Below are positions 9,481 through 55,830 of a stretch of 62,469 nt of DNA, piece by piece. The notes under the pieces were generated by a model. That model made no database searches. It was given only the letters and a program-made list of their open reading frames with translations, and had not been told where the DNA came from. The stretch is from contig JAZUCU010000023.1 in the NCBI GenBank assembly GCA_045639325.1, positions 1-62,469 on the forward strand. The letters run 5' to 3'. Position numbers and translations under genes: made by a program. Numbering within the stretch: the first letter of the stretch is position 1; each line of letters begins with the position of its first letter. Source of the stretch: Victivallales bacterium. GTDB taxonomy: Bacteria; Verrucomicrobiota; Lentisphaeria; Victivallales; UBA1829.

Positions 9481-9580
9481 AAAAAGCCGAACGCTCCCAT
9501 GTATTGCTCAATAGGTTCCGCCAAGCACCTGCACCTCAAAACAAACGAAAGCGTCCGGCAAGTTGTGAAAACACAATCTT
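9481..9580. repeat. Degenerate ~100-bp intergenic repeat; second copy at 42830-42935
   Basis: Shared blocks 'aaaaaa(g)ccgaacgct', 'gaaagcgtccggcaag' and 'cacaatct', roughly 75% identity. Confidence 0.4.
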
Positions 9581-9667
9581 TCCATCAAAGATATTGCCTT
9601 TATGTGCGGATACGAAAATCCCCTCTATTTCTCCAACGCTTTCCGCCATAAATTCGGGGTGTCTCCA

Positions 9668-9724
9668 CGCCGGTTCCGGAAATCCGATATGGGGTAATAC
9701 AATACAGATCACCTTATTTCTTCA
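9668..9724. repeat. Left copy of a ~55-bp direct repeat flanking the 9811-12612 gene; right copy at 12867-12918
   Basis: 'cgccggttccggaaatccgatatgg...agatcaccttatttcttca'. The right copy spans the stop codon of the phosphatase gene (..ELKK*); the left copy carries a remnant '..DTVLKK*' reading frame on the minus strand. Confidence 0.65.
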
Positions 9725-9742
9725 GTACGGTGTCGTCCATAC

Positions 9743-9790
9743 AAAAAACGGAATTTTGACTAAGGTTTTACCCTCAATCAAAATTCCGTT
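9743..9790 (-). terminator. Rho-independent terminator for the 9811-12612 gene
   Basis: Stem 'aacggaatttt'/'aaaattccgtt' with a 22-nt loop, followed on the minus strand by a T6 run. Confidence 0.45.
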
Positions 9791-9810
9791 TCTTTATAGT
9801 TTAGCTTTTA

Positions 9811-18546: not shown

Positions 18547-19317
18547 TTACTGTTTTAACGGTTCAAAGTCCGGACGTCCCAATGCCCATACATTGTTGCA
18601 GGGCGCGGCGTGTCCATCCACATAAAGCAAATTGGATTTACCCTTGAAGAATCGTTTGTCATTCACTGATGTACCATAATGATGTCCCGGCGCACTGTGC
18701 GGGTTGGCAAGAAAGTAGAAATTGCCCCAGGATTCCATGATAACATAATATCCGCTGGGCTGACCGGGTCTTGCACTTGCTGAATCCCCATTCATAACAA
18801 GGGCGGAAGGTCTTTTGATCTGAGATGTTTTGCGCCATTTTTCCATACTGGCTCCGTTATGAGATGCACCACCCAGTTCATTGCCGTTATAACCATAATT
18901 GTAATATACGGAAAAATCGTCCACGATCATGGTCTTTTCCGTATGTTTCTTCCCGGCGGCAGTGGAATTTTCCTGATCGTAAGGAAAGGTACAGAATTTA
19001 CGGGCAGTCGGGCACACAAAGGTTTCCGGTGAAATCTTATAATATTTGTACAGAATCTGAAGCCAGTTGTTTTTGAACGCTTTTATGGAATTGTAAGTCC
19101 CCAGATGAGATGTATCAGATGTAGGAATAAAGTACCCGCCGAAATCCATTGTATACGTTGTAATCCCCAAACCAATCTGTTTTTCATTGCTCAGACAGTT
19201 GTTGCTTCTGCCCGATTCCTGCGCTTTGCTCAATGCCGGAAGAAGCATTGCCGCCAGAATGGCGATGATTGAGATGACGACCAACAGTTCAATCAATGTG
19301 AATTTACTGTGTTTCAT
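18547..19317 (-). CDS. Prepilin-type N-terminal cleavage/methylation domain protein (DUF1559-like)
   Basis: [29 protein letters not shown] ... [10 protein letters not shown]. Confidence 0.7.
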
Positions 19318-31415: not shown

Positions 31416-32144
31416 TTATCTTGCAACTTTCAACCATTCATCACGCCCAATCGGCAGAACAGCCGGTGTATGGGTCTTTGCCTGAATCGGGGCGGCAAGG
31501 CGATATTCCACATGACCATCCACCATCAACATCTGTGTATGAGTCCTGGAGTGATACAAACCGAAACTCCACATGGTATTCAATGCCGTATTAGCATAGC
31601 ATTGATGCGCTACAGGATAACGCCAGGTCGTGTTCTGCGCAACTCCGGCTATCGGATAATTGGCATATTCCGCTGCATAATAGATCTGACTGGCTTTCTT
31701 CAATCGGCTGATGTTAACGCCCACTCGTGAAACCGGTATGTTGTACAGTGCGCCATTGATTCCGTAACTGGTGGACTCCCACGAAGCATAAGCAGGCGAG
31801 CCATCCGTACCTGCCCTTTTTTTGTGAGACGGACAAAGAAATACTTTCATACCCTTTTTATATCCTTCGGTTCCCGAATCAACTCCTCCTGTATAAAGTG
31901 CCAGTTTTGCATTCCATGCGTGCTGCACCAACGCCGTCGATTGGGAAAACATCGGAGCATATCCACCGTTATCTCCCGTATACAGATTCATCGCCATGCC
32001 AACCTGTTTCAGATTGGATGTGCAACTCGCCTTGCGACCTGTTTCCCGGGTCTTGTTCAATGCCGGCATCAACATCGCTGCCAGAATGGCGATGATGGAG
32101 ATAACTACCAGCAATTCGATCAACGTAAAGCTTCTCTGTTTCAT
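31416..32144 (-). CDS. Prepilin-type N-terminal cleavage/methylation domain protein (DUF1559-like)
   Basis: [29 protein letters not shown] ... LMVDGHVEY. Confidence 0.7.
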
Positions 32145-45569: not shown

Positions 45570-45902
45570 ATGGATATAAAATTCTATTCTCTGGAAGAAG
45601 TGGCAGACCTTTTTGGCGTCAATTATCAATTGGTCTATAAATTGGTAAAATCAGGCGAATTGCCGTCTGTACGAATCGGCAAAGTATACCGAGTATCAGC
45701 GGCACAGCTGAAAGAATATATGGATCGGCAGAGCCAGGGCAGTCCTGCATCCGGCGTAACAGAATACATTTGCAGCAGCTGTGGGAAAAAATATTATAGT
45801 GCCTTATCGATATCCGGACAATGCAAAGATTGCAGTGCACCGCTGTGCAAAGTATGCGTGGAACACAAACACATCCAATATTGCGAAATTCATCAGAAAT
45901 GA
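45570..45902 (+). CDS. Excisionase/MerR-type HTH (HTH_17) DNA-binding protein with C-terminal Cys-rich zinc-binding tail
   Basis: LEEVADLFGVNYQLVYKLVKSGELPSVRIGKVYRV matches the excisionase-family HTH. C-terminal CxxC...CxxC...CxxC...CxxH. Confidence 0.6.
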   Translation: MDIKFYSLEEVADLFGVNYQLVYKLVKSGELPSVRIGKVYRVSAAQLKEYMDRQSQGSPASGVTEYICSSCGKKYYSALSISGQCKDCSAPLCKVCVEHKHIQYCEIHQK

Positions 45903-45924: not shown

Positions 45925-47802
45925 ATGATCGACAACTGGTTTACTAACAAATGTATGACGCTGGTCGGTGCGAATGGCAGAGCCCTTGCAGGAGAAGCAT
46001 TGGAATTGGCGGAACTGGCATTGCAGGAAGTCAAAGCTGCCAATCACAAAGTCTGGACAGACCGGAATGGTAATTTTTACCACAAAGAACGCAGTCTGTT
46101 CGCATCCGCTCACCCTGTCATGGATCAAAATGGGAATCAGGTCCGGATTTGCGGACGGCTTGTAAAATTCAAAGCAAAATTCTGCAGCAAATGCGGCGGC
46201 ACTGCTCCGGGCAGCTGGTGGAGATGCGGCGGATGCGGCAAAATGATCGGCAGCGAATCCCACACATGTCCTCATTGCGGCAGAGCACAAAATCTGATTG
46301 TCCGCCTGGATCTGACAAACGGCTGCTGGAGAAAAGATGAAGAAATATTTGCAGAACGCTTTGAACTGAACGATATTGCCTCTTTGATCCCCATCGGCCT
46401 GGACGTGCAGGAAAGCCAGAAAGCCATTATTCTCGAAGGTGGCGCTGTGGTCGATGTATTGGATGCCGGCCATTACCCGCTTCCGGATCTCACCAACAAG
46501 GAAGGCGGCGAAAAAAGCGTGGTCATGGTCGACAATGCGGAATTCATCATTCCTGTTAAAGTGGAACAGATTCTGACAAAAGACGACATTGAATCCGATC
46601 TCCATACCGTGATCGTTTTGCGTTTCGCCCCCGCAAAAGCAGAACAATTCATGTGCAATCTGATGGGCAGTGCACTGTACCTGAAAGATGATGCGCTGAC
46701 TGCATCTCTGGGATATGATGAAATTGCACACTGCATTCTTGCGGAAGTCGATGGCGCAGCAAGAGAATTTTGTAACAATACAACGGTTGCCGATCTTTTC
46801 CGTGATGCCGCCACCCGGATCAATCTGGAAAATCACATTGCAAACCGCTTGAAACGTAATATGGATGCCATGGGTATGAGCTTCGTACGACTGAAAGAAG
46901 TCGAATTTGAATCAGAAGTCTTCACCCGCCTCCGCAATATGTCCGGACAGATTGAAATCAAACGCAAAGAAATCGAATTCATGCAGCGTGCCGATGAGCT
47001 TGCCAACGATGCAACCCGTCGGGAAGCCATGAGTGAGCACGAAATGGAAGAATTCATGAAGCAGCTTGCTCAGGAAAAGACCATCAAGGATGATTTGCGT
47101 GCGCAGGAACTCGAACGCATGAGAGTACTCTGGCAGAGACAGAAAGATAAAGAAATCATTTCTCATGAACATGATTTGAATGATCTGACACAGGAAAGAC
47201 AGCACGAATATGATCGCACAGAAGCCAAATTCAAGCACGAAATGCTGGATTTGGATCACAGTAAAGCCATCGAACGCCGTATCAATGAACATAAAGGAAA
47301 TCTGGAATACGAACAGATTGAAAGTCAAATCCAGACCATCAGAATTGACGTTCAGAGAAAAAAAGTTGCCGCAGAACACGAAGCGGCTGCCGGTTGGCTG
47401 AAACTCAAACAGGATAAAAAAGCATTCGACCACAAATTGAAGTTGGAAATGCTCAAAGAAGCGGATAACGTCAACATTCAGGCCTTGCTGATGGCAGAAG
47501 AAGATTCCGATAAACGACGCGACCTGCTTGCTCTGTTTGAATTGCAGCAGCAGACCAAGATGACTCCGGAACTTCTCCTCGCGGCCGCCGCTGCACGGGG
47601 TAATGCCGCTGCCGCAGAAGCTCTGACACATATGGATCAATCCAAACTGGATGCTCTGGAACGGTTCAAGAATGAAAATAAAGCCGTTTATGAACAGATG
47701 CTTCAGATGAGCGAACGCATGTTCAATCAGGCTCTTGACAAAATGGCTCAGACCCGCGATAATTCCCAAAACAATAATTTAACTGCACAGATTATTAAGT
47801 GA
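45925..47802 (+). CDS. Double-zinc-ribbon plus SPFH/Band-7 (flotillin-like) domain protein with long EA-rich coiled coil
   Basis: CSKCGG..CGGCGK..CPHCGR ribbons. SPFH-like core (AIILEGGAVVDVLDAGHY ... MGMSFVRLKEVEFESEV). Flotillin-like coiled coil ending LLAAAAARGNAAAAEAL. Confidence 0.55.
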   Translation: MIDNWFTNKCMTLVGANGRALAGEALELAELALQEVKAANHKVWTDRNGNFYHKERSLFASAHPVMDQNGNQVRICGRLVKFKAKFCSKCGGTAPGSWWRCGGCGKMIGSESHTCPHCGRAQNLIVRLDLTNGCWRKDEEIFAERFELNDIASLIPIGLDVQESQKAIILEGGAVVDVLDAGHYPLPDLTNKEGGEKSVVMVDNAEFIIPVKVEQILTKDDIESDLHTVIVLRFAPAKAEQFMCNLMGSALYLKDDALTASLGYDEIAHCILAEVDGAAREFCNNTTVADLFRDAATRINLENHIANRLKRNMDAMGMSFVRLKEVEFESEVFTRLRNMSGQIEIKRKEIEFMQRADELANDATRREAMSEHEMEEFMKQLAQEKTIKDDLRAQELERMRVLWQRQKDKEIISHEHDLNDLTQERQHEYDRTEAKFKHEMLDLDHSKAIERRINEHKGNLEYEQIESQIQTIRIDVQRKKVAAEHEAAAGWLKLKQDKKAFDHKLKLEMLKEADNVNIQALLMAEEDSDKRRDLLALFELQQQTKMTPELLLAAAAARGNAAAAEALTHMDQSKLDALERFKNENKAVYEQMLQMSERMFNQALDKMAQTRDNSQNNNLTAQIIK

Positions 47803-47812
47803 GGCAGCTATA

Positions 47813-49342
47813 ATGATAATAAAATGTCCCAACTGCTCAAACGAAGTTGAATTTATTCCGGGTGAATGTGAATTCTGCCCGGAATGTGGCAGCGATCTGA
47901 CCGTGCAGGAACAACAGCAACAGGCAACCGATGTTCCACAACAGGAAACCGCCTGCGTGCAAAACAAAGAAGCGGAAGAAACATTTTCCGATCAGGATAC
48001 CATTGCAGCACTGATGGCGAAACTTGCCGAACTGAAGGCTGACAAATCCCGGCAGACCTCCCGCCCTGTTGAAAAAGAAGAAAACTGGGATTTATCTGCA
48101 AAATCAAAAATGATTGCGGATGATATTGATTCCTTTGATATTTTCAGCACTTCTTCCAGCACATGCAAGCAGCTGAAAGTGGAATACAACCACAATCTCC
48201 ATTTCTTAACTGGATCTCAGGCCGTTATCCAGCTCAGACTGACTCCCCTTGATGATCAGCTGAAAGATTTGATGATCTTTATGGAGACAGAACGGAATGG
48301 CGACCATACAAGACGTCAGATTCCGATCCGGGAAATATTGAGAAAAAACCGTTCCTTCTCGCTGCAGATCCCCTTCAATCCGGAAAATACATTCGGTAAA
48401 GCATTTTTTATATTTTACATCGGCTGCAAAATTGATAAAACATTCAAGTATTATCAGTTCTCCGTAAATCACACAGTATACGATTCCAAGCAGTCCGGAA
48501 ATGCTATTATCAAGGACATCACGATCAATCAGGAGTTCTCCGCCCAGCATGCCGCAGATATCAATTACCGCGATAACTTCGGCGAGGCAATGAAGAAATT
48601 GGCGGATAAAAACCTGACCGTCAACGAACTGATCGACCGCTTGAATGCCATGCCGCCCAATTTCTGCGAACAGGATCTCATTGAAACAACGTGGAGACCC
48701 GAGGATATACTTGTCAAAGGCAATTTATACCGCGCCGATAAACTCATTCTTGAGTACGAAGGCAAGTCATTAATCCTCATCAATAAACCGAAAGTGGTCT
48801 TCGGCAGAGACCGGAACCAGGCCGACCTGCTTGTCCGATGCGGACAGGGTAAACTCGGGCAGATGGAATACCCCAATTCCACCGTCAGCAGAAAACATGC
48901 AGAAATTCTTTATTGCGATGACACCGTAAAGCTCTTCGATCACAGTTCTTACGGAACCTATATCAACGGGAAAAAACCCGATGGCCCCGGTATTCCGTTA
49001 GCTCTGACTGCAAATGTTGAATTCGGCGACATCTGCTGGGAAATGAATATACAGCAATGTGCAGGCCGGGTGCCGCACAATATCTGCCAGACATGTACGG
49101 CAAATAAAGTCAAATCGGTCACCTTCAAAAGAAAAGATAAGGAACCGGAATATTATCTGCTGATCTGGCAATGCTGTGAGCTCGGCAGATTGATCGAAGA
49201 TTTGACCGACTGGACCATTTTTACCAGAGATGATTCATTCTTTATCCGGACGCCGGACCAGGATTTCCACTATTTGCGCCCCGGTCAACCCATTACTTAC
49301 AACAACAAAACTTTTAACGTAAAATATTTTTATCAAGCTTAA
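47813..49342 (+). CDS. Zinc-ribbon plus FHA domain protein
   Basis: N-terminal CPNCSNEV...CPECGS. C-terminal FHA pattern VVFGRDRNQADLLV...VSRKHAEILYCDDTVKLFDHSSYGTYINGKK. Confidence 0.65.
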   Translation: MIIKCPNCSNEVEFIPGECEFCPECGSDLTVQEQQQQATDVPQQETACVQNKEAEETFSDQDTIAALMAKLAELKADKSRQTSRPVEKEENWDLSAKSKMIADDIDSFDIFSTSSSTCKQLKVEYNHNLHFLTGSQAVIQLRLTPLDDQLKDLMIFMETERNGDHTRRQIPIREILRKNRSFSLQIPFNPENTFGKAFFIFYIGCKIDKTFKYYQFSVNHTVYDSKQSGNAIIKDITINQEFSAQHAADINYRDNFGEAMKKLADKNLTVNELIDRLNAMPPNFCEQDLIETTWRPEDILVKGNLYRADKLILEYEGKSLILINKPKVVFGRDRNQADLLVRCGQGKLGQMEYPNSTVSRKHAEILYCDDTVKLFDHSSYGTYINGKKPDGPGIPLALTANVEFGDICWEMNIQQCAGRVPHNICQTCTANKVKSVTFKRKDKEPEYYLLIWQCCELGRLIEDLTDWTIFTRDDSFFIRTPDQDFHYLRPGQPITYNNKTFNVKYFYQA

Positions 49343-49357
49343 GAAAGGAAGACAACA

Positions 49358-50095
49358 ATGAAAAAAAATCTGTTTCTCAGCACCATCTGCATGGCCGTTT
49401 TTATGCTCCTGCAGGGCTGCACTCTGGTAACACCTCAACCTCTTTCCAATGACAATGCCCGGGGAGTTCCGGTTCCCATGCATACGTATGGAAATATTAC
49501 TCTGTTCGAAGAATTGCGCGCACCTCTGCAAGTCTCCGTAACAACCGAAGATCCCGCCTTAATCAATACCATGCGGAAATATCTGCAACAGTCTGATATC
49601 AATTGCGCAGCACCCGGTGCTCCCTTTGACATCCGGGTCAATATCAATTCCATGTATCACGAATTGACTCCGGCTCCGAAATGCCGTCTTTCCAACACCA
49701 CAATCATTTCTGTGTCTGCCCCCGACGGCACAAAGATTTCAAAAGACTGGAAACAGAAAACGGTAAATCAGCAGGGATTCGCAACGGCTGAAATTGCAAA
49801 AGCAAAACTCAAACCCATGATTGCAAAAAATATCAAACTGTGGGAACAGAATTATTTCCGCAAAGAAGCCGGTGGCCGTTTGAATGTCGCAGTCCTGCGT
49901 TTCAAAATGTCAAAAGCCTGGATCGAACTCAACCCGATCCAGTTTGAAAAAGATATTATGAAAGTCAATAAACATCTGCGCAAAATCAAGAATGTCGCCG
50001 ATGTACGTATGATCGAAGTCGATAAAAAATCCAGAATTGTCTCATTCCGCATTCTCTGCATCGATCACGTCAATTTCAAAAACGCTCTCAAATAA
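49358..50095 (+). CDS. Lipoprotein of unknown function
   Basis: Lipobox LLQGC. No recognisable domain. Confidence 0.5.
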   Translation: MKKNLFLSTICMAVFMLLQGCTLVTPQPLSNDNARGVPVPMHTYGNITLFEELRAPLQVSVTTEDPALINTMRKYLQQSDINCAAPGAPFDIRVNINSMYHELTPAPKCRLSNTTIISVSAPDGTKISKDWKQKTVNQQGFATAEIAKAKLKPMIAKNIKLWEQNYFRKEAGGRLNVAVLRFKMSKAWIELNPIQFEKDIMKVNKHLRKIKNVADVRMIEVDKKSRIVSFRILCIDHVNFKNALK

Positions 50096-50125: not shown

Positions 50126-50917
50126 ATGAAGAAAATCAATTTACTTTTTGCCGCTGCAGCTCTCACATTCTGCTTCGGATGTGGCGGAGATATCACCGTC
50201 GAGCCCCAGCCCACACTCCCACCGCTGCCGCCCGCTCCTGCACCCGTCACCATAACAACGCAGGCAGATGCTAATTTCACGGTTGCAAGTGAAACCAATA
50301 CAAAACTGCGTGCAGATTTCAAATGGAACAACTCCGAAGCGAATTTCAGCTGTAAACTGGCTGAACGTCTTGCGGATCAAATTGTGATTCAGAATGCAGA
50401 TCTCACCATGAATGGTAAATGCGATGTAACAATTATCATCATGCCCGAATTCGAATTGAAAGATAAAACCGGCAATTATTACCGCATTAACTGCAATCAG
50501 ATCAAGGTCTCTCTGGTCATGGCGCAGAAAACCGGTGCTATAAAAGTTATCGAACTCAAACCGATGCCCCGTAAACTGGGAATCGAACAGGCGAAAAATC
50601 AGTACCTCACCCCGGCTGTTAAAAAACTCGTCCCGTTCCTGCGCAAGGAATTGACAAGACTCAGCAATGAAGAGGTCGCCGTCGGCATCGTAAATTTTGC
50701 TCTGGCTAACATTCAGGAACAGCCCTCCTCTGAAAAAGTTGCCAAAGAAGTTGAAAGAATTGCCGATATTATGAAAAATATGAACGGAATCATCAACTAC
50801 ACTGTGATCCGGCAGGATGTGAACAAAGCACAATGCACATACCGGGTGGTTTACCTGAGAGAAAAATTCCCCCAGGGACTCAGAAACGCTCTCAACTTGA
50901 AACTTGCCAACAAATAA
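50126..50917 (+). CDS. Lipoprotein of unknown function
   Basis: Lipobox CFGCGG, followed by a Pro-rich linker. Confidence 0.5.
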   Translation: MKKINLLFAAAALTFCFGCGGDITVEPQPTLPPLPPAPAPVTITTQADANFTVASETNTKLRADFKWNNSEANFSCKLAERLADQIVIQNADLTMNGKCDVTIIIMPEFELKDKTGNYYRINCNQIKVSLVMAQKTGAIKVIELKPMPRKLGIEQAKNQYLTPAVKKLVPFLRKELTRLSNEEVAVGIVNFALANIQEQPSSEKVAKEVERIADIMKNMNGIINYTVIRQDVNKAQCTYRVVYLREKFPQGLRNALNLKLANK

Positions 50918-50932
50918 CATAAAACGGAGATT

Positions 50933-52093
50933 TTGAAAATGAAAAAGTTTTTTATTACTCTTGCAGCATTCATCTTGACGGCTGCCGCCGCATTCGCCAA
51001 TGATGAAAAGATTATTACGGATGAAGATATCAGACAGGCCATTTACGGTGCTTTGGATAAAGCCGCCGCTGAACTGAAAAACGCAAACCTGGGCAAAGCT
51101 CCCATTGCTGTTTACGCATCAAAACAATATCAGATGATCCTTTCCGGTCGTCTCAAAACCATGCTGAACAATGCCGGTTATACCTGCATCGAAGAAAAAG
51201 ATGATCCTTTCTGGAATGAATTGATCAACCGGATCGAATGGAATGAACGCAAAGAAGATATCCTTGATCCGACAACCATTATGAAATTCGGTAAATTGAA
51301 AGCCGCAAAAGTCCTCTTCCAGTGCTATATCCGCCACATCGATAAAAACTCCGATCGCGTATATGTGGAACTCGATTTGCGTGCAACTGAAATCAATACT
51401 GCTAAAAACCTCTGGAGCACAACAGTCTCTCACCGCCACTATATCGGCGAAAAAGTCCAGGGTATCGTTGCCATTGATAATAATCTGGCTGAACTCCTTA
51501 AAAAGAATTTCCAATTCGCTCATCAGTCTCTGATTTCCCAGTTCTACACCGAAAAACTCAAAAATGTCAGAAATATTGCCGTGATTCCTCTCAGCGGCGA
51601 TGTCGCTTCCTACCTCACGCAGTTGACGATCGAAATGATCTCACGCACAAAATATCTCCCGAAACATTCCCCCATCCCCTCTCTGGCAGAAGCACGTATT
51701 GCCGTACGTGACAAACAGCTGGGCAGCGATGCCATCTGCTTCGGTTCTGTCCGTTCCCTCCATACAACAAGACCCGTTGAAACAATCCAGTATGAGAAAA
51801 AAACAATGGTCTACTCATGGAATGTTGTTGCTGATATCCAGATTTTTATCGAAGACACCAAAGGAAACATTCTCTGGAGTGCTGCAATCCGCCTGAATGA
51901 ACCTGTTGTATCAGAAAGAGCAATGACCCCAGATGAAATTAAAAAATATGCTCCTTCCAGTATCATGGTATGGTTTTACAATAACTGGGGACTCTGTTTG
52001 CTGATCGCAGGCGGCTTTGTTGGCGCAATTGTCCTTATCATCTGCCTCACCATTGCATTCAAAGCGATTATCCTTTACAATCACGTAAGATAA
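50933..52093 (+). CDS. Secreted protein with two CsgG/LpoB-like repeats and a C-terminal TM anchor
   Basis: Signal peptide, then IAVYASKQYQ... and IAVIPLSGDVASYLTQL... repeats. C-terminal WGLCLLIAGGFVGAIVLIICLTIAF. Confidence 0.4.
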   Translation: MKMKKFFITLAAFILTAAAAFANDEKIITDEDIRQAIYGALDKAAAELKNANLGKAPIAVYASKQYQMILSGRLKTMLNNAGYTCIEEKDDPFWNELINRIEWNERKEDILDPTTIMKFGKLKAAKVLFQCYIRHIDKNSDRVYVELDLRATEINTAKNLWSTTVSHRHYIGEKVQGIVAIDNNLAELLKKNFQFAHQSLISQFYTEKLKNVRNIAVIPLSGDVASYLTQLTIEMISRTKYLPKHSPIPSLAEARIAVRDKQLGSDAICFGSVRSLHTTRPVETIQYEKKTMVYSWNVVADIQIFIEDTKGNILWSAAIRLNEPVVSERAMTPDEIKKYAPSSIMVWFYNNWGLCLLIAGGFVGAIVLIICLTIAFKAIILYNHVR

Positions 52094-52116: not shown

Positions 52117-53244
52117 ATGAGTGATTATGATTGGAAGAAGGAACGGGAAAAATTCCGTACAAACTTGACATCTGCCGCTTCACAGAAAACAGAAAACGCC
52201 AATGGCAATTTTTCCACTGCAGATACCGCAGGTAAAAAGATTGCCGGAAAAGGTGGACTGCGGCTTGTCATAGCGGGTTTTCTTGTTCTTCTTGCCGTTG
52301 GAATCTGGATGTTTGTCTCGCACAATTCCAATAACAGCACTGCCGCATTTGTCAAGGTTGCGGAACAGAAAAAAAAGGCTCTCGGACTTGTTGTACTGGT
52401 TATCGAAACAAAGGATCATCAAAAAGTTTCTTTGCCTTGCGGTACGGCCTGGGCTTTTTCTGACAAGCAGTTCGCGACCAATGGACATGTTGCCGCAGGT
52501 ATACAAGAAACATTGGCTGATTTTATCGCAAACAATGCCAACGAACTGCTGGCACAGGAGGCAAAAAAAAACAACTGCCAATCCGTTGATGATTACCTGA
52601 AGAAACTCGGCGAACAGAAAGCCGGAGAAACGGTAAAAAGCGCAACGCAATTCGTTATCAGCAAAATCAGCAGCGTCCAGGCAGAAATCATCATTAACGG
52701 CACAAAAAAACAGAGCTATACCGTGACCCATGTCCAAATACACAAAGGATATGGCGCTGTCGATACAAAATTCGATCCCGATGTGGCTGTCCTGACAATC
52801 AAAGAAAAGCATGACTGTTATTTCTCTATCGCAGATCAGAAAACTTTGGGAAATCTCAAATCCGGTATCCCCGTTGCATTCCTCGGTTTCCCGACAGAAG
52901 GTTTGCGGCAGGATAATGTGAACATTGATAACCCCATCGCATCCATGCAAACCGGGATCATTGTCGCCGTCAGCGACTTTGAAATGAAAGACGCGGGGCA
53001 ATCCGGCAATTTCCTCATCCGTCACAGCCTGCCTGCAACCGGTGGCGCAAGCGGATCTCCCATTTTCAACCAGAAAGGGGAAGTCCTTGCCTTGCTTTAT
53101 GCGGGGAATGTAATCGGACAAATCAACGCTGACGGCAAAGTACAGCGTGCTCCCTCCGCCGCCATGATCAATTTCGGCGTCCGCGTGGATTTGATTTCAG
53201 GCATGGCAGCTCCCGTTGCCATAGAAAAATTCTTAAGTCTTTAA
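52117..53244 (+). CDS. Membrane-anchored (N-in) trypsin-like serine protease (S1/trypsin_2-like)
   Basis: Catalytic triad context TNGHVAAG (His), DVAVLTI (Asp), GASGSPIF (Ser). N-terminal cytoplasmic motif MSDYDWKKEREK, then a TM helix. Confidence 0.7.
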   Translation: MSDYDWKKEREKFRTNLTSAASQKTENANGNFSTADTAGKKIAGKGGLRLVIAGFLVLLAVGIWMFVSHNSNNSTAAFVKVAEQKKKALGLVVLVIETKDHQKVSLPCGTAWAFSDKQFATNGHVAAGIQETLADFIANNANELLAQEAKKNNCQSVDDYLKKLGEQKAGETVKSATQFVISKISSVQAEIIINGTKKQSYTVTHVQIHKGYGAVDTKFDPDVAVLTIKEKHDCYFSIADQKTLGNLKSGIPVAFLGFPTEGLRQDNVNIDNPIASMQTGIIVAVSDFEMKDAGQSGNFLIRHSLPATGGASGSPIFNQKGEVLALLYAGNVIGQINADGKVQRAPSAAMINFGVRVDLISGMAAPVAIEKFLSL

Positions 53245-53265
53245 CATTCTTTTAACGAGGCAAAA

Positions 53266-55170
53266 ATGAAAGAATATAACTGGCGTGAAGAACGCAAAAA
53301 CAGATACTCCAACACCCCACACGCAAATGGAAATAATGCAGGAGGATACTCCACTCCCCCCGCCTCAAGCGGCGGCGGCAATGCATTAAAAATCATTCTC
53401 TTCCTCATCATCCTTGCAGGTATTGGCGGCGCAGGATTTTATTATTTCAACAAAAAATCAACCGTTCTCCCGCTTGCTCCCGCACCCGCTGCATATTCTG
53501 TAAACACTCCTGTTGCATCGCAATCGCTTCCGACTCCCGTTGCAAGTGATTCTCCGGCAAAGGAATATGTTCTGCCGGAAATCACAGTACATTACCAGAG
53601 CGGCCCCACTGAAAATGATGAGTACGGTATTATGAATGTGTACGAATCCGGAAAAAGAAAGCAGCTCAAAGCTCCGGCTGTCACGGATGAAGAATTGAGC
53701 AATCATAAGCATAAAAATGCTCTTCTCCAACTGAAGAATAATGCCGTTAACACGCTCAAATTCTTCGCCGGCACATTCGATTATCGTTCTTATGATAACA
53801 AGAACGGTTCTTACAAAATGCATTACACCATTAAAGAATGCACCATTGATCAGAACGGGAAAAAAACTGTTGAAAGCGTAAATAACGCTTATGAACATGC
53901 TGACCCGCTTGGTAATGGCATATTTGATATACACTTTGCTTTTTCTCCCGAAAATATTCATCAGGATACTGTCACTCACGAATTTACCCATGCCGTCACA
54001 GATTACAGAATTAACGATGGCGATAGGAGCACTTTGATTTACGCAGGTCATTCCGGTGCACTCCATGAATCGTTTTCTGATATTTTTGCCTGTCTCCATC
54101 ATATCGAAACAAATCCGGGTTTAACCAGAGAACAGCGTTGGAGTTTTGCAAATGGATCCCGGGATCTTGCAAATCCGGGATCAAAAGTCTCATACGCCGG
54201 CGCCAGATATCCATCTTACTACAAGCAGAATGATGAAAACGGAAAATGGCTTGATCCTTCATCAAATCGTGACGGGGGATATGTACACCATAATATGTCC
54301 GTCCTCTGTAAATTTGCATATCTGATTTGCGAAGGTGATACATTCCGCGGTCAGACGATCAAACCTATGGGGCATATCAAAACCAGAAAACTCTTCTGGC
54401 AGCTTCAGGACAGCAATTATATTGACGTTGCACAGCATTTTGATAATCTCGCAGACAAGATCATTTTTGCCGCAAATGATGCAAAGTTCAGTGAAGATGA
54501 TCTGGTTAATATCAAAAATGCATGTCTGGCTGTCAATCTGCCGATCGATGACAAAATTCTGCAGCTTTTTGATTCCTATGAGAAACAGAATAATACAGGA
54601 AAATTCTCTGCTTCTCTTAAATATGCCTTTACGCCAAAAGCAGTAACAGAAAATGTCCGGATCAATTCAGAAGAGACATTCCGGAACCTGTTCAAAGGCG
54701 AAGAAATCGGAAAAATCTTTGTGAAGCAGAGCGGCGTAAGTGCAAATCCCGGTAGCGATGCCTATAAATATACTGCCCGGAATGTTTCATCCCTGCCGAA
54801 TGCGTTTGGCAGTGGCAGCAGCAAATATTATCAGACAACGCAATGTGTTTCCAATATCCCCGTCTTTGCATCTTCCGCAGTCGTCAGAGTCGATCAGAAA
54901 GGCGAAGTTACACGCTTCAGCAAAAACTTCTCCAGCCGCGCAAAAAACACAAGCATCACACTCAAGTCGTTCCCCGATTCTCTCAAAAAAGAGGTGTTGA
55001 AAAATCAGGAAGTCCGGAATGTCAGCAACTATATCTTTGACCCGGCTCTGCTCCGTATGAAAGGTGCTCCCACCGTCGTCTGGATGGTGGATACACCCGC
55101 CCATCGCTACCTGATCGATCAGAAAAGCGGTAAGGTCGTTTATGACTACCCGCTGATTATTAAAGACTAA
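53266..55170 (+). CDS. Membrane-anchored (N-in) thermolysin-like M4 zinc metalloprotease with an extra C-terminal domain
   Basis: VTHEFTHAVTDY...GALHESFSDIF matches thermolysin (HELTHAVTDY...GAINEAISDIF). N-terminal motif MKEYNWREERKN plus a TM helix. The last ~110 aa are paralogous to the 55180 lipoprotein. Confidence 0.75.
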   Translation: MKEYNWREERKNRYSNTPHANGNNAGGYSTPPASSGGGNALKIILFLIILAGIGGAGFYYFNKKSTVLPLAPAPAAYSVNTPVASQSLPTPVASDSPAKEYVLPEITVHYQSGPTENDEYGIMNVYESGKRKQLKAPAVTDEELSNHKHKNALLQLKNNAVNTLKFFAGTFDYRSYDNKNGSYKMHYTIKECTIDQNGKKTVESVNNAYEHADPLGNGIFDIHFAFSPENIHQDTVTHEFTHAVTDYRINDGDRSTLIYAGHSGALHESFSDIFACLHHIETNPGLTREQRWSFANGSRDLANPGSKVSYAGARYPSYYKQNDENGKWLDPSSNRDGGYVHHNMSVLCKFAYLICEGDTFRGQTIKPMGHIKTRKLFWQLQDSNYIDVAQHFDNLADKIIFAANDAKFSEDDLVNIKNACLAVNLPIDDKILQLFDSYEKQNNTGKFSASLKYAFTPKAVTENVRINSEETFRNLFKGEEIGKIFVKQSGVSANPGSDAYKYTARNVSSLPNAFGSGSSKYYQTTQCVSNIPVFASSAVVRVDQKGEVTRFSKNFSSRAKNTSITLKSFPDSLKKEVLKNQEVRNVSNYIFDPALLRMKGAPTVVWMVDTPAHRYLIDQKSGKVVYDYPLIIKD

Positions 55171-55179
55171 GGAGTTTTT

Positions 55180-55830
55180 ATGATACAATCAATTTTTTCA
55201 ATTGCCGCACTCGCCGTTATGATGCTGTTCATCGGTTGTGATAAGAAAACACCGATTGCTCCGGCAGAACCGGAAAAGAAAGCACCTGCAAAACAAATAC
55301 AGTTGAACGCACTGCTTCAATTCAAAGATCCGGAAATGAAAAAGCTGTTTGCAGAAAAGAAAATCGATCTGCAGAATCTCTCCGTTTCCGGCAAAAAAGA
55401 TTTGGAAAAACTCTTTGGAAATATCATAGAATGTAACGTCAGAGAAAAACCGGCAAGTATCGGTGCCAAAGATAAAACTTTCTTTATCGATCAGAATGTG
55501 AAAGGAATCCCCGTGTACGCTGCAACCGCTGTCCTGCGTTGCAGTGCGGATGGTAAAGTGAAATATTTCAGCTGTAATTTCTCTTCTGCTGCATTGAAAC
55601 TGCAGGCAAAGCCCCGCAAGCTCACGCCGGAACTTCAAACCAAACTTTTCGGAAAAACAAAAACAACCTGTAATGGTGATATGATTTTCGATCCCGTACT
55701 GGTCAATCTGAAAGGCAACACCGCTCTGACGTGGAAATTTACAAACGATATGGAAGTCGTACTGATTGATCAAACAACGGAAAAGAAAGTCTTTGTTCTG
55801 CCCCTTTCCACTTCCATGAAAGCGTTGTAA
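55180..55830 (+). CDS. Lipoprotein paralogous to the C-terminal domain of the M4 protease
   Basis: Lipobox FIGC. IPVYAATAVLRCSADGKVKYFSCNFSS / IFDPVLVNLKGNTALTWKF / VLIDQTTEKKVF align to VFASSAVVRVDQKGEVTRFSKNFSS / IFDPALLRMKGAPTVVWMV / YLIDQKSGKVVY of the protease. Confidence 0.55.
   Translation: MIQSIFSIAALAVMMLFIGCDKKTPIAPAEPEKKAPAKQIQLNALLQFKDPEMKKLFAEKKIDLQNLSVSGKKDLEKLFGNIIECNVREKPASIGAKDKTFFIDQNVKGIPVYAATAVLRCSADGKVKYFSCNFSSAALKLQAKPRKLTPELQTKLFGKTKTTCNGDMIFDPVLVNLKGNTALTWKFTNDMEVVLIDQTTEKKVFVLPLSTSMKAL

What the first reader, a model, noticed from the sequence alone, without database searches (positions are those of the whole stretch)
52117..53330. Two mechanistically unrelated proteases share a cytoplasmic N-terminal motif before their TM anchor
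The trypsin-like protease starts MSDYDWKKEREKFRT. The adjacent M4 metalloprotease starts MKEYNWREERKNRYS. Both share the motif (D/E)Y(D/N)W(K/R)xEREK(x)R. Each continues with a low-complexity linker and one TM helix, placing the catalytic domains in the periplasm. A short shared cytosolic tag on two different periplasmic proteases suggests a common cytoplasmic docking or regulatory partner. The co-operonic SPFH or FHA protein is an obvious candidate (FHA domains bind short phospho-peptides).
Basis: seen in the sequence. Interest (0 to 1): 0.7.

Follow-up and report, generated by a model that had tools for sequence, protein, structure and literature searches.

The report
Shared cytoplasmic tag on two proteases
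Two unrelated envelope proteases encoded side by side in a gut Lentisphaeria bacterium start with the same strongly conserved 11-17-residue cytoplasmic peptide, which a search of 1.84 billion proteins found in no other family and which most likely plugs both enzymes into the flotillin-like/FHA scaffold of their own operon.

Summary
The HtrA-like serine protease (52117-53244) and the M4 metalloprotease (53266-55170) both begin at Met1 with M-x-[ED]-Y-[ND]-W-[RKH]-x-E-R-[EK]. A disordered linker and one TM helix follow. In 83 homologues of the serine protease (down to 33% identity) the tag is as conserved as the catalytic blocks. All 11 tagged M4 relatives start MKEYNW[RH]EERK. A profile search of 1.84 billion representative proteins found 31 hits. 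All are at residue 1 and all belong to these two families. Tagged genes always sit in one operon: HTH-ZnF, Zn-ribbon-SPFH, Zn-ribbon-Ig-FHA, lipoproteins, an LpoB-like protein, then the protease(s). The tags are the only conserved cytoplasmic parts of the envelope components. The best reading is a docking peptide for the operon's cytoplasmic SPFH/FHA complex. This is inferred from fusions in distant relatives (FHA-TM-protease, SPFH-protease) and from a 63-residue SPFH insertion found only in tag-bearing lineages. Canonical FHA-phosphothreonine binding of the tag is unlikely, because the tag has no conserved Ser/Thr. The receptor was not identified and no binding was shown. This is an undescribed motif and operon, a new variant of a known principle.

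The parts
52117..52167 (+). N-terminal tag of the serine protease (aa 1-17, MSDYDWKKEREKFRTNL); cytoplasmic
   Evidence: It is the 6th most conserved 15-aa window among 83 homologues (3.43 bits per column). AF2 predicts a short helix at aa 6-12.
52168..52257 (+). Variable, disordered cytoplasmic linker (aa 18-47)
   Evidence: About 1 bit per column. pLDDT below 50 for aa 19-45. Length is 18-56 aa in homologues and the composition is P/A/K/Q/E-rich.
52258..52326 (+). Single TM helix / signal anchor (aa 48-70)
   Evidence: Hydropathy 2.61. AF2 helix at aa 48-70.
52327..53244 (+). Periplasmic HtrA/DegS-like serine protease domain without PDZ (His124, Asp222, Ser312)
   Evidence: Pfam Trypsin_2. 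The triad is invariant in A2. Foldseek hits DegP/HtrA1/AlgW at E about 1e-10.
53266..53301 (+). N-terminal tag of the M4 metalloprotease (aa 1-12, MKEYNWREERKN); cytoplasmic
   Evidence: MKEYNW[RH]EERK is present in all 11 tagged M4 relatives and fragments.
53302..53382 (+). Low-complexity cytoplasmic linker of M4 (aa 13-39)
   Evidence: sequence.
53383..53445 (+). Single TM helix of M4 (aa 40-60)
   Evidence: Hydropathy 2.27.
53653..54555 (+). M4 (thermolysin-type) catalytic region; HEFTH at nt 53977 and the third ligand motif ESFSD at nt 54067
   Evidence: Pfam Peptidase_M4_C 6.9e-16 and Peptidase_M4 0.0064; motifs.
54631..55170 (+). C-terminal domain of M4, homologous to the next gene (propeptide/FTP-like by a weak NCBIfam hit)
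   Evidence: The lipo216 HMM hits aa 456-634 at 5e-73. NCBIfam M36 N-terminal region at E 0.02 on the paralogue.
55180..55830 (+). Lipoprotein paralogous to the M4 C-terminal domain; travels with M4
   Evidence: Lipobox IGC. Co-occurs with M4 in L016.
45570..45902 (+). HTH_17 plus Zn-finger protein, cytoplasmic; first gene of the operon
   Evidence: Pfam HTH_17 2.8e-13. No TM. Absent from the tagged loci L021, L032 and L104.
45925..47802 (+). Double-Zn-ribbon plus SPFH/flotillin-like coiled-coil protein, cytoplasmic (no TM)
   Evidence: Pfam DZR. 10 of 13 family members hit Band_7, best 2.6e-15. No TM.
45955..46152 (+). About 63-66-aa insertion splitting the first CxxC knuckle of the SPFH Zn ribbon; candidate receptor for the tag
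   Evidence: Present in 9 of 9 tag-bearing lineages and absent from 5 of 5 lineages with other N-terminal modules.
47813..49342 (+). Zn ribbon, Ig-like beta-sandwich, helical region, FHA and Cys-rich C-domain protein, cytoplasmic; candidate receptor for the tag
49358..50095 (+). Lipoprotein (245 aa), paralogue of the next gene
   Evidence: Lipobox LQGC. Mutual HMM hits.
50126..50917 (+). Lipoprotein (263 aa)
   Evidence: Lipobox FGC. Conserved in all tagged operons.
50933..52093 (+). LpoB-like periplasmic protein with signal peptide and C-terminal TM anchor; always directly upstream of the tagged serine protease
   Evidence: Pfam LpoB 0.0036. TM at aa 354-372. Adjacency in all loci.

Best explanation
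The tag is a short cytoplasmic docking peptide, probably a charged helix with an aromatic Tyr4/Trp6 face. It sits at the extreme N-terminus of two bitopic proteases whose catalytic domains face the periplasm. It tethers both enzymes to the soluble cytoplasmic proteins of the same operon: the Zn-ribbon-SPFH (flotillin-like) scaffold and/or the Zn-ribbon-Ig-FHA adaptor. That would make one trans-envelope unit, in which a cytoplasmic scaffold gathers, positions or gates periplasmic proteolysis. The scaffold would itself be read out by Ser/Thr phosphorylation through the FHA domain. Shown here: the motif, its conservation, its exclusivity to two families, its position at Met1, its cytoplasmic topology, and its strict linkage to the operon. 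Inferred: that it binds a protein; that the receptor is encoded in the operon (either the lineage-specific 63-aa insertion in the SPFH Zn ribbon or a non-FHA domain of the FHA protein); and that binding regulates or localises the proteases.
For: (1) Purifying selection acts on the peptide. The tag scores 3.43 bits per column, against 4.05 for the catalytic Ser block and about 1 for the linker. Synonymous codon changes occur at Y, N, R and E. (2) Exclusivity. A profile of 73 tags searched against 1.84e9 proteins gave 31 hits. All are at residues 1-30, and all are the serine protease, the M4 protease or fragments of them. NCBIfam and Pfam have no model for it. (3) Every tagged gene with enough flank lies in the same operon with SPFH and the 3-domain FHA protein. 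Untagged relatives (P0076, P0128) lie in other contexts. (4) The three cytoplasmic proteins have no TM. Apart from the few residues of tail after the C-terminal TM anchor of the LpoB-like protein, the tags are the only conserved cytoplasmic parts of the envelope components. (5) Rosetta-stone fusions. In distant homologues of the protease the same N-terminal cytoplasmic position carries an FHA domain (many), GYF_2 or a Zn ribbon. These genes sit next to SPFH genes and Ser/Thr kinases. One protein, L088:2401-4605, is a Zn-ribbon-Band_7-Trypsin_2 fusion. (6) The SPFH insertion co-occurs with the tag in 9 of 9 lineages and is absent in 5 of 5 lineages with other N-termini. (7) A second lineage of the same operon carries a different but equally conserved N-terminal peptide, MSRIDELRSRDERQAARLGLERP. 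This is expected if peptide and receptor co-evolve. (8) AF2 gives a short helix at aa 6-12. Residues 8 and 11 covary in charge: K8/E11 40 times, E8/K11 20 times, K8/K11 never.
Against: There is no direct evidence of binding. All tag-bearing genomes form one clade (Lentisphaeria), so the correlation with the SPFH insertion and with the Cys-rich FHA C-domain is confounded by phylogeny. FHA is a promiscuous domain, and the SPFH-protease fusion is a single contig. The tag has no conserved Ser/Thr, so the best-understood FHA binding mode does not apply. AF2 confidence on the tag is only 60-70. The window's own SPFH copy falls below Pfam's Band_7 threshold. No kinase lies next to the operon in this window.
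Confidence: 0.55

Rival explanations
1. The tag is a cargo or sorting signal rather than a static dock. It would mark the two proteases for recruitment into an SPFH microdomain or for membrane remodelling or vesicle packaging by an ESCRT-III/Vps4-like machinery. The Ig-like or FHA adaptor would read it, as eukaryotic adaptors read short cytosolic sorting motifs.
For: In the sister lineage (L049/L053) the homologous operon continues with a Zn-finger coiled-coil protein, a classic AAA ATPase and a Snf7-like protein. L020 has the same Zn-finger coiled-coil and Snf7/PspA-like genes next to an M4 protease. Archaeal Vps4/ESCRT-III loci are reported with FHA, S/T kinases, Zn-ribbon-coiled-coil-SPFH and Ig-like adaptin domains (PMC11188069). 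The mid domain of the FHA protein is an Ig-like sandwich.
Against: No ESCRT-like genes lie next to any tag1 operon examined, including this window. The Snf7 hit is weak (E 6e-5, below Pfam's cutoff). This reading overlaps with the docking model and is not separable by sequence.
Confidence: 0.13
2. The tag is bound by the FHA domain itself as a phospho-peptide.
Against: There is no conserved Ser/Thr in residues 1-17 of the serine-protease tag or residues 1-12 of the M4 tag. Position 15 is Pro in 61% of sequences. Tyr4 is replaced by Phe in several members. Thr is present in 75 of 83 linkers but at no conserved position.
Confidence: 0.06
3. The tag is a stability or processing signal, such as a degron for a cytoplasmic AAA+ protease like FtsH, or a site of N-terminal processing. 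It would set the turnover of both proteases together.
For: It lies at the extreme N-terminus in all 31 profile hits. It is exposed on a disordered linker. It is shared by two enzymes that would need coordinated dosage.
Against: A degron for a housekeeping protease would be expected on more than two families. Residue 2 varies (K, S, Q, G, N, T, V, A), so N-end-rule-type recognition is unlikely. This reading does not explain the strict linkage to the SPFH/FHA genes.
Confidence: 0.08
4. The tag is a lipid-interface or topology element. It would be a short aromatic and basic helix lying on the inner leaflet that fixes N-in orientation or senses anionic lipids, with no protein partner.
For: Net charge is +1 or +2 in 79 of 93 tags. 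Trp and Tyr are typical interfacial residues. A helix is predicted.
Against: The tag is separated from the TM helix by 18-56 disordered residues. It is highly charged and not amphipathic. The positive-inside rule needs no invariant E-Y-N-W. The extreme specificity to two families argues for a specific receptor.
Confidence: 0.08
5. The similarity is only historical. The M4 gene copied the 5' end of the neighbouring protease gene by duplication or recombination. Alternatively the conserved element acts at the nucleotide level, for example as a translation-initiation context, with no shared protein function.
For: The genes are adjacent. The M4 gene is an optional later addition to the operon. M4 tags resemble the REERKK variant found in one subclade of the serine proteases.
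Against: The two tags in this genome differ at 7 of 15 residues and use different codons, so recent conversion is excluded. MKEYNW[RH]EERK is invariant in M4 relatives whose overall identity is 36-46%. Synonymous variation shows that selection acts on the peptide.
Confidence: 0.05

Closest known systems
FtsN N-terminal cytoplasmic peptide docking on FtsA (and similar short tails of bitopic divisome or elongasome proteins); from my own knowledge, not tested here
   Same: A bitopic N-in protein whose only cytoplasmic part is a short conserved charged peptide. A linker and one TM helix follow. The peptide docks on a cytoplasmic scaffold and couples it to a periplasmic activity.
   Different: The sequence, partners and pathway are unrelated. 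Here the same peptide sits on two different enzymes, and the presumed scaffold is an SPFH/FHA complex.
SPFH-protease partnerships: HflK/C-FtsH, stomatin-NfeD/STOPP, prohibitin-m-AAA (own knowledge; HflK/C cage cited in PMC11188069)
   Same: An SPFH-family scaffold is encoded with, and presumably organises, membrane-anchored proteases. A direct SPFH-Trypsin_2 fusion exists in a relative.
   Different: The SPFH protein here has no TM segment and carries N-terminal Zn ribbons. The proteases are HtrA-like and M4, not FtsH or NfeD. The proposed contact is a cytoplasmic N-terminal peptide. No sequence match to any solved SPFH structure was found.
DegS/AlgW-type membrane-anchored HtrA proteases
   Same: Best structural matches for the protease domain. 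N-terminal signal anchor and periplasmic catalytic domain.
   Different: No PDZ domain. A large helical insertion (aa 123-183). A 47-aa cytoplasmic extension carries the tag. Identity is 12-16%.
FHA-TM-protease fusions of the same protease family, and YscD/EscD-type cytoplasmic FHA domains (Pfam PF16697)
   Same: Same protease family and same topology. The cytoplasmic N-terminus carries a signalling or adaptor module. SPFH and Ser/Thr kinase genes are neighbours.
   Different: In the window's lineage the module is reduced to a 17-aa peptide, and the FHA domain is on a separate 3-domain protein.
Motifs embedded in long signal peptides (Tat RR, YSIRK-G/S, KxYKxGKxW); own knowledge
   Same: A short conserved motif near the N-terminus, upstream of a hydrophobic segment, shared by functionally different exported proteins.
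   Different: Those motifs mark many substrates per genome, sit close to the h-region, and are cleaved off. Here there are at most two proteins per genome, an 18-56-aa spacer, and an uncleaved signal anchor.
Effector-associated adaptor domains (EADs) and GYF-trypsin fusions in NTP-dependent conflict systems (Kaur et al. 2020, PMC7159879)
   Same: The logic is one shared N-terminal module that couples different effector enzymes, including trypsin-like peptidases, to a common core. GYF-trypsin fusions of this family are mentioned there.
   Different: EADs are globular domains of about 80-100 aa and are also present on the core NTPase. The tag is 11-17 aa, and no copy is found on any other operon protein. 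There is no STAND or GTPase core here, and PADLOC finds no match to any complete known system.

Membership tests
HtrA/DegS-like (S1C) serine proteases | Chymotrypsin fold with a His-Asp-Ser triad | tested here: met
   His124, Asp222 and Ser312 are invariant in 45 sequences. Foldseek hits DegP, HtrA1 and AlgW at E about 1e-10. Pfam Trypsin_2.
HtrA/DegS-like (S1C) serine proteases | One or two C-terminal PDZ domains | tested here: not met
   No PDZ hit in Pfam. The model ends with the protease barrel at aa 375.
Thermolysin family (MEROPS M4) | HExxH plus a downstream Glu ligand; Peptidase_M4_C domain | tested here: met
   HEFTH at aa 238 and ESFSD at aa 268. Peptidase_M4_C scores 59 bits against a cutoff of 24.4.
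Thermolysin family (MEROPS M4) | N-terminal signal peptide plus FTP/PepSY propeptide | tested here: not met
   The N-terminus is tag, linker and TM anchor, with no FTP or PepSY hit there. An FTP-like domain appears at the C-terminus and in the next gene instead. More distant M4 hits (P0127, P0129-P0131) do carry PF07504.
SPFH-protease modules (HflK/C-FtsH, stomatin-NfeD) | SPFH/Band_7 domain protein encoded with the protease | tested here: met
   10 of 13 family members hit Band_7, best 2.6e-15. The window copy is 67-71% identical to members that hit. It is co-operonic in all tagged loci.
SPFH-protease modules (HflK/C-FtsH, stomatin-NfeD) | SPFH protein membrane-anchored by its own TM or hairpin; partner is FtsH or an NfeD-family protein | tested here: not met
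   No hydrophobic segment in the 625-aa protein. The partner proteases are Trypsin_2 and M4.
SPFH-protease modules (HflK/C-FtsH, stomatin-NfeD) | Physical complex between scaffold and protease | not testable with these tools
   Only indirect evidence: one SPFH-Trypsin_2 fusion and the insertion/tag co-occurrence.
FHA domain-phosphothreonine peptide ligand pair | FHA domain with canonical pThr-binding residues (GR, SxxH, NG) | tested here: met
FHA domain-phosphothreonine peptide ligand pair | Conserved Thr in the ligand peptide | tested here: not met
   No Ser or Thr is conserved in tag residues 1-17.
FHA domain-phosphothreonine peptide ligand pair | Cognate Ser/Thr kinase | tested here: inconclusive
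   Pkinase genes flank the operon in L014, L016 and L103 and flank the FHA-fused relatives. None was found in the window ORFs scanned.
Signal-peptide sorting motifs (Tat, YSIRK, KxYKxGKxW) | Motif adjacent to the h-region of a cleaved signal peptide and present on many substrates per genome | tested here: not met
   An 18-56-aa spacer. One tagged gene per locus in the four GTDB genomes hit. Only two families in 1.84e9 proteins.
Effector-associated adaptor domains (EADs) | Globular adaptor domain present on both the effectors and the core component (homotypic pairing) | tested here: not met
   The tag is 11-17 aa. The tag HMM finds no other operon ORF above 7.7 bits.

The most novel reading that the evidence does not exclude
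The tag is a bacterial cargo-sorting signal. In this PVC-group lineage a soluble flotillin-like coat with an Ig-FHA adaptor would recognise the N-terminal peptide and sort or concentrate envelope proteases into a specialised membrane domain or vesicle. In sister lineages the coat is encoded together with ESCRT-III/Vps4-like genes. This would be a prokaryotic analogue of adaptor-mediated sorting by short cytosolic motifs.
Probability: 0.12. Interest if true: 0.85.

Novelty: new variant of a known kind. Interest (0 to 1): 0.62.

Why it matters
Short linear docking motifs are central to eukaryotic signalling but are rarely recognised in bacteria. Here an 11-17-residue peptide is as conserved as an active site. 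It is confined to two unrelated proteases of one operon and sits on the side of the membrane opposite to their catalytic domains. If it docks on the SPFH/FHA proteins, it defines an undescribed trans-envelope module in which a cytoplasmic flotillin-like scaffold and Ser/Thr phospho-signalling control periplasmic proteolysis. It also gives a ready experimental handle, because peptide, point mutants and candidate receptors are all defined. Beyond this lineage, the N-terminal cytoplasmic slot of this protease family accepts interchangeable modules: tag 1, tag 2, FHA, GYF and Zn ribbon. The system extends to lineages where it is linked to ESCRT-III/Vps4-like genes.

Tried and rejected
1. AF2 docking of the tag onto the FHA protein as a tag-(GGS)10-receptor chimera with a paired alignment (A3).
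2. GYF-like nature of the SPFH insertion. hhalign of the insertion (A5) against the GYF N-termini of related proteases (A6) gave probability 0.2%. Rejected.
3. A second, independent case of tag sharing. The untagged M4 relative P0128 starts MSRLDD..., which looks like the 'tag 2' of another protease lineage (MSRIDELR...). A tag-2 HMM does not detect it, and it has no TM helix. Rejected as chance.
4. HTH_17-ZnF protein as obligate receptor. That gene is absent from the tagged loci L021, L032 and L104. Unlikely.
5. Known families for the tag. Pfam, NCBIfam and PADLOC have no model. A full-text search for EYNWR and for related operon descriptions found nothing relevant.
6. Sequence match of the SPFH protein to solved structures. 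None, either as a single sequence or as a profile.
7. Special similarity between the operon's FHA domain and the FHA domains fused to distant proteases. Only generic FHA similarity.
8. Homotypic copies of the tag on other operon proteins. None.
9. A strict DNA pattern in 185,579 species genomes found only 4 genuine tagged genes, all in Lentisphaeria/Victivallaceae MAGs. The other 9 of the 13 matched stretches were not tagged protease genes: chance matches in other taxa, plus one in a Lentisphaeria contig (L003).

Full report
OBSERVATION. The two ORFs exist as described. ORF 52117-53244(+) encodes a 375-aa Trypsin_2 protein starting MSDYDWKKEREKFRT. ORF 53266-55170(+) encodes a 634-aa Peptidase_M4_C protein starting MKEYNWREERKNRYS, with HEFTH at aa 238 and ESFSD at aa 268. 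[DE]Y[DN]W occurs only twice in the six-frame translation of the window, against 0.27 expected. Both occurrences are at codon 3 of these neighbouring genes. I compared the N-terminal 12-mers of all 105 ORFs of at least 100 aa (5,460 pairs). This pair ranks second, 5.6 SD above the mean. Only a pair carrying the well-known prepilin-type FTLIELLV N-terminus scores higher, which is a useful positive control. Each protein has one hydrophobic helix (aa 48-70 and aa 40-60) after a basic N-terminal segment. That gives an N-in, catalytic-domain-out topology.

CONSERVATION. The serine protease has more than 120 relatives, almost all from gut and rumen metagenomes. The only names given are 'Lentisphaeria bacterium' and Victivallaceae. 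About 85 of them, down to 33% identity, start M-x-E-Y-N-W-[RK]-x-E-R-[EK]-K-[YF]-[RQ]-P-D-F. In an alignment of 83 of these, the first 15 residues are the sixth most conserved 15-residue window. They score 3.43 bits per column, against 4.05 for the catalytic GGASGSP block. The next 30 residues carry about 1 bit per column. The M4 protease has few relatives. All 7 that are close, plus 4 fragments, start MKEYNW[RH]EERK, although overall identity falls to 36-46%. More distant M4 hits have ordinary signal peptides and FTP propeptides. Codons at Y, N, R and E vary synonymously among loci. In-frame stops lie 4-10 codons upstream. An SD-like GAAAGGA precedes the ATG. So the start is correct and selection acts on the peptide. 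A profile built only from serine-protease tags detects every tagged M4 N-terminus at 13-31 bits. The window's copy scores 14.0 bits, and the best unrelated ORF of about 3,500 scores 7.7 bits.

EXCLUSIVITY. A profile of 73 tags (A1) was searched against 1.84 billion representative proteins. It gave 31 hits at E of 1e-3 or better. All start at residue 1. On inspection every one is the serine protease, the M4 protease or a fragment of one of them. A strict degenerate DNA pattern matched 13 stretches in 185,579 species genomes. Only four of these are genuine tagged protease genes, one per locus, all in Lentisphaeria MAGs. Pfam, NCBIfam and PADLOC have no model for the tag, and the literature search found nothing.

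CONTEXT. Every tagged gene with enough flanking DNA lies in the same operon. This holds for the window, L008, L014/15, L016, L021, L024, L027, L031, L032, L102 and L104, and partly for L002, L006, L009, L022, L023 and L025. The gene order is:
- HTH_17-Zn-finger protein (absent in L021, L032 and L104)
- double-Zn-ribbon-SPFH/Band_7 protein
- Zn-ribbon-FHA protein
- one or two paralogous lipoproteins
- an LpoB-like protein with a C-terminal TM anchor
- the tagged serine protease
- optionally the tagged M4 protease plus a lipoprotein homologous to the M4 C-terminal domain
- often Ser/Thr kinases
The three upstream proteins have no TM segment. The tags are therefore the only conserved cytoplasmic parts of the envelope components, apart from the few residues of tail after the C-terminal TM anchor of the LpoB-like protein. 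A strictly co-inherited set of cytoplasmic and periplasmic proteins needs a link across the membrane, and the tags are the obvious candidate. This step is inference.

ANATOMY OF THE PLAYERS. AF2 on the serine protease (pLDDT 88) gives a short helix at aa 6-12 (pLDDT 60-70), a disordered linker at aa 19-45, a TM helix at aa 48-70, and an HtrA/DegP/AlgW-like protease domain without PDZ. Residues 8 and 11 of the tag covary in charge: K8/E11 40 times, E8/K11 20 times, E8/E11 12 times, K8/K11 never. Net charge is held at +1 or +2 in 79 of 93 distinct tags. This fits a helix with an i/i+3 pair, although the sequences are not independent. AF2 on the FHA protein (pLDDT 85) shows these parts:
- a Zn ribbon
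- a disordered linker
- an Ig-like beta-sandwich
- a helical region
- a Cys-rich C-terminal beta domain
The SPFH assignment rests on 10 of 13 family members matching Band_7, best 2.6e-15. The window copy is 67-71% identical to members that match.

WHO BINDS THE TAG? Four lines of evidence bear on this.
- Distant members of the same protease family carry other modules at the same cytoplasmic N-terminus. These are an FHA domain (two types, many loci), GYF_2, a Zn ribbon, or a different conserved peptide, MSRIDELRSRDERQAARLGLERP ('tag 2': L045, L049, L050, L053, L067).
- The tag-2 and GYF lineages keep the homologous operon with HTH-ZnF, SPFH, the 3-domain FHA protein, a lipoprotein and the LpoB-like protein. 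FHA-fused proteases lie next to SPFH genes and kinases but lack the separate 3-domain FHA protein.
- One contig encodes a Zn-ribbon-Band_7-Trypsin_2 fusion without a TM segment.
- In all 9 tag-1 lineages where the SPFH gene is available, its first CxxC knuckle is split by a conserved insertion of about 63 residues (70% mean column identity). The insertion is absent from the SPFH proteins of the tag-2, GYF-fused and FHA-fused lineages.
These are Rosetta-stone and co-occurrence arguments, and they point to both the FHA protein and the SPFH protein. They cannot separate the two, and the tag/insertion correlation is confounded by shared ancestry. The HTH-ZnF protein is unlikely to be required, because three tagged loci lack it. 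Direct FHA-phosphothreonine recognition of the tag is unlikely, because no Ser/Thr is conserved in it and Tyr4 can be Phe. Thr occurs in 75 of 83 linkers but at no fixed position.

MECHANISM PROPOSED (confidence 0.55). The tag is a cytoplasmic docking peptide that plugs both periplasm-facing proteases into the operon's soluble SPFH/FHA complex. That would create one trans-envelope unit, in which a flotillin-like scaffold that reads phospho-signals positions or gates periplasmic proteolysis. The tagged TM proteins may conversely recruit the TM-less SPFH protein to the membrane. Shown: the motif, its conservation, exclusivity, position, topology and operon linkage. Inferred: the binding, the identity of the receptor and the regulatory consequence. 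The rivals are a sorting signal for SPFH/ESCRT-like remodelling, a phospho-FHA ligand, a degron, a lipid-interface helix, and a historical relic. They are listed with their evidence in the rivals section. The sorting variant is the most novel reading not excluded. It is prompted by AAA/Vps4-like and Snf7-like genes downstream of the tag-2 operon and by reported archaeal ESCRT loci with FHA, kinases, Zn-ribbon-SPFH and Ig-like adaptors (PMC11188069). No such genes flank any tag-1 operon.

COMPARISON WITH WHAT IS KNOWN. By my own knowledge, the system works most like the short N-terminal cytoplasmic peptides of bitopic proteins that dock on cytoplasmic scaffolds (for example FtsN on FtsA). It also resembles SPFH-protease partnerships (HflK/C-FtsH, stomatin-NfeD). 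It is not a member of those systems: the SPFH protein has no membrane anchor, the proteases are of other families, and no sequence match to solved SPFH structures exists. The serine protease is HtrA-like in fold but lacks PDZ. The M4 enzyme lacks the N-terminal propeptide and has a propeptide-like domain at its C-terminus instead. The tag is not a signal-peptide motif of the Tat, YSIRK or KxYKxGKxW kind, and it is not an EAD-type adaptor domain (see the membership table). Kaur et al. 2020 (PMC7159879) mention GYF-trypsin fusions and the adaptor logic, but not this operon or motif.

VERDICT. This is a real, statistically robust, strongly selected and previously undescribed short motif with an unusually narrow distribution. 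It sits in an uncharacterised conserved envelope operon of Lentisphaeria. Novelty: new variant of a known kind. Interest: 0.62.

Noticed in passing
window 45955-46152 (aa 11-76 of ORF 45925-47802); also L008, L014, L016, L021, L024, L032, L102, L104: A conserved insertion of about 63 residues splits the first CxxC knuckle of the N-terminal Zn ribbon of the SPFH protein (...NKC-MTL[VGANGRAL.GE.LE.AE...K.WTDRNG.FY.KER.LFA...D.NGN.VRI]CG...). It is present in all 9 tag-bearing lineages and absent from the SPFH proteins of lineages whose protease has another N-terminal module.
   Followed up: partly
L088 2401-4605 (+): A single 734-aa protein combines a double Zn ribbon, Band_7/SPFH with coiled coil, and a Trypsin_2 domain of this same protease family, with no TM segment. 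This is a direct SPFH-protease fusion. An FHA-TM-trypsin paralogue lies 5 kb downstream (9500-10996).
   Followed up: partly
L045 581-1495, L049 9722-10657, L050 2823-3758, L053 6026-6961, L067 2269-4122: A second, unrelated-looking conserved N-terminal peptide (MSR[HIL]DELR.RD...A...GLERP) precedes the TM helix of the protease in a high-GC lineage that has the homologous HTH-SPFH-FHA-lipoprotein-LpoB-like operon.
   Followed up: partly
L049 10718-13508; L020 5089-6033 and 7912-8547: Downstream of the tag-2 operon lie a Zn-finger plus coiled-coil protein, a classic AAA ATPase (Vps4-like by domain content) and a Snf7/PspA-like protein (Pfam Snf7 E 6e-5). The Zn finger resembles that of the HTH-ZnF protein. 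This is a possible bacterial ESCRT-III/Vps4-like module linked to SPFH/FHA. L020 has the same genes around an untagged, apparently TM-less M4 protease.
   Followed up: partly
window 54631-55170 and 55180-55830: The M4 protease lacks the usual N-terminal FTP/PepSY propeptide. Instead it carries a C-terminal domain that is paralogous to the lipoprotein encoded immediately downstream (HMM E 5e-73). A weak NCBIfam hit places this domain with the N-terminal propeptide region of M36/M4 enzymes. It may be a relocated inhibitor or chaperone domain.
   Followed up: partly
window 18547-19317 (-) and 31416-32144 (-): Two ORFs start [13 protein letters not shown] and [13 protein letters not shown]. From my own knowledge this is the prepilin-type N-terminal cleavage/methylation motif that is expanded in PVC bacteria. 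It was the only N-terminal pair in the window scoring above the protease tags.
   Followed up: no
L031 2878-6057; L032 6990-9989; L029 1-1815: In one tagged sub-lineage the LpoB-like protein is extended to about 1,000 aa, with about 600 extra residues after the LpoB-like part. No Pfam hit was found on the two scanned (L032, L029).
   Followed up: no
L038 590-, L039 4366-, L042 8311-10350: Proteins of about 680 aa fuse a signal peptide and an N-terminal region that by eye resembles the LpoB-like protein to the same trypsin-like domain. If confirmed, this would mirror the invariable LpoB-like/protease adjacency in the operon.
   Followed up: no
L014 11214-13103 and 17549-20734; L016 13922-16783; L103 1668-4835; L017 11735-15803: Ser/Thr protein kinases lie directly downstream of the tagged operon or of FHA-fused relatives, several of them fused to FGE-sulfatase, beta-helix or PEGA domains. 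None was found in the window ORFs scanned.
   Followed up: partly
L019 161-11378: An untagged close relative of the serine protease (P0076, 43% identity) sits instead before two dynamin-like GTPases, a 1,112-aa FGE-sulfatase protein and Zn-finger proteins. This recalls the GTPase-centred conflict systems with GYF-trypsin described by Kaur et al. 2020.
   Followed up: no
window 49358-50095 and 50126-50917; L020 237-3937: The two operon lipoproteins are paralogues of each other. In L020 three tandem paralogues fuse an LpoB-like N-terminal half to this lipoprotein domain, which suggests that the LpoB-like and lipoprotein components act together.
   Followed up: no
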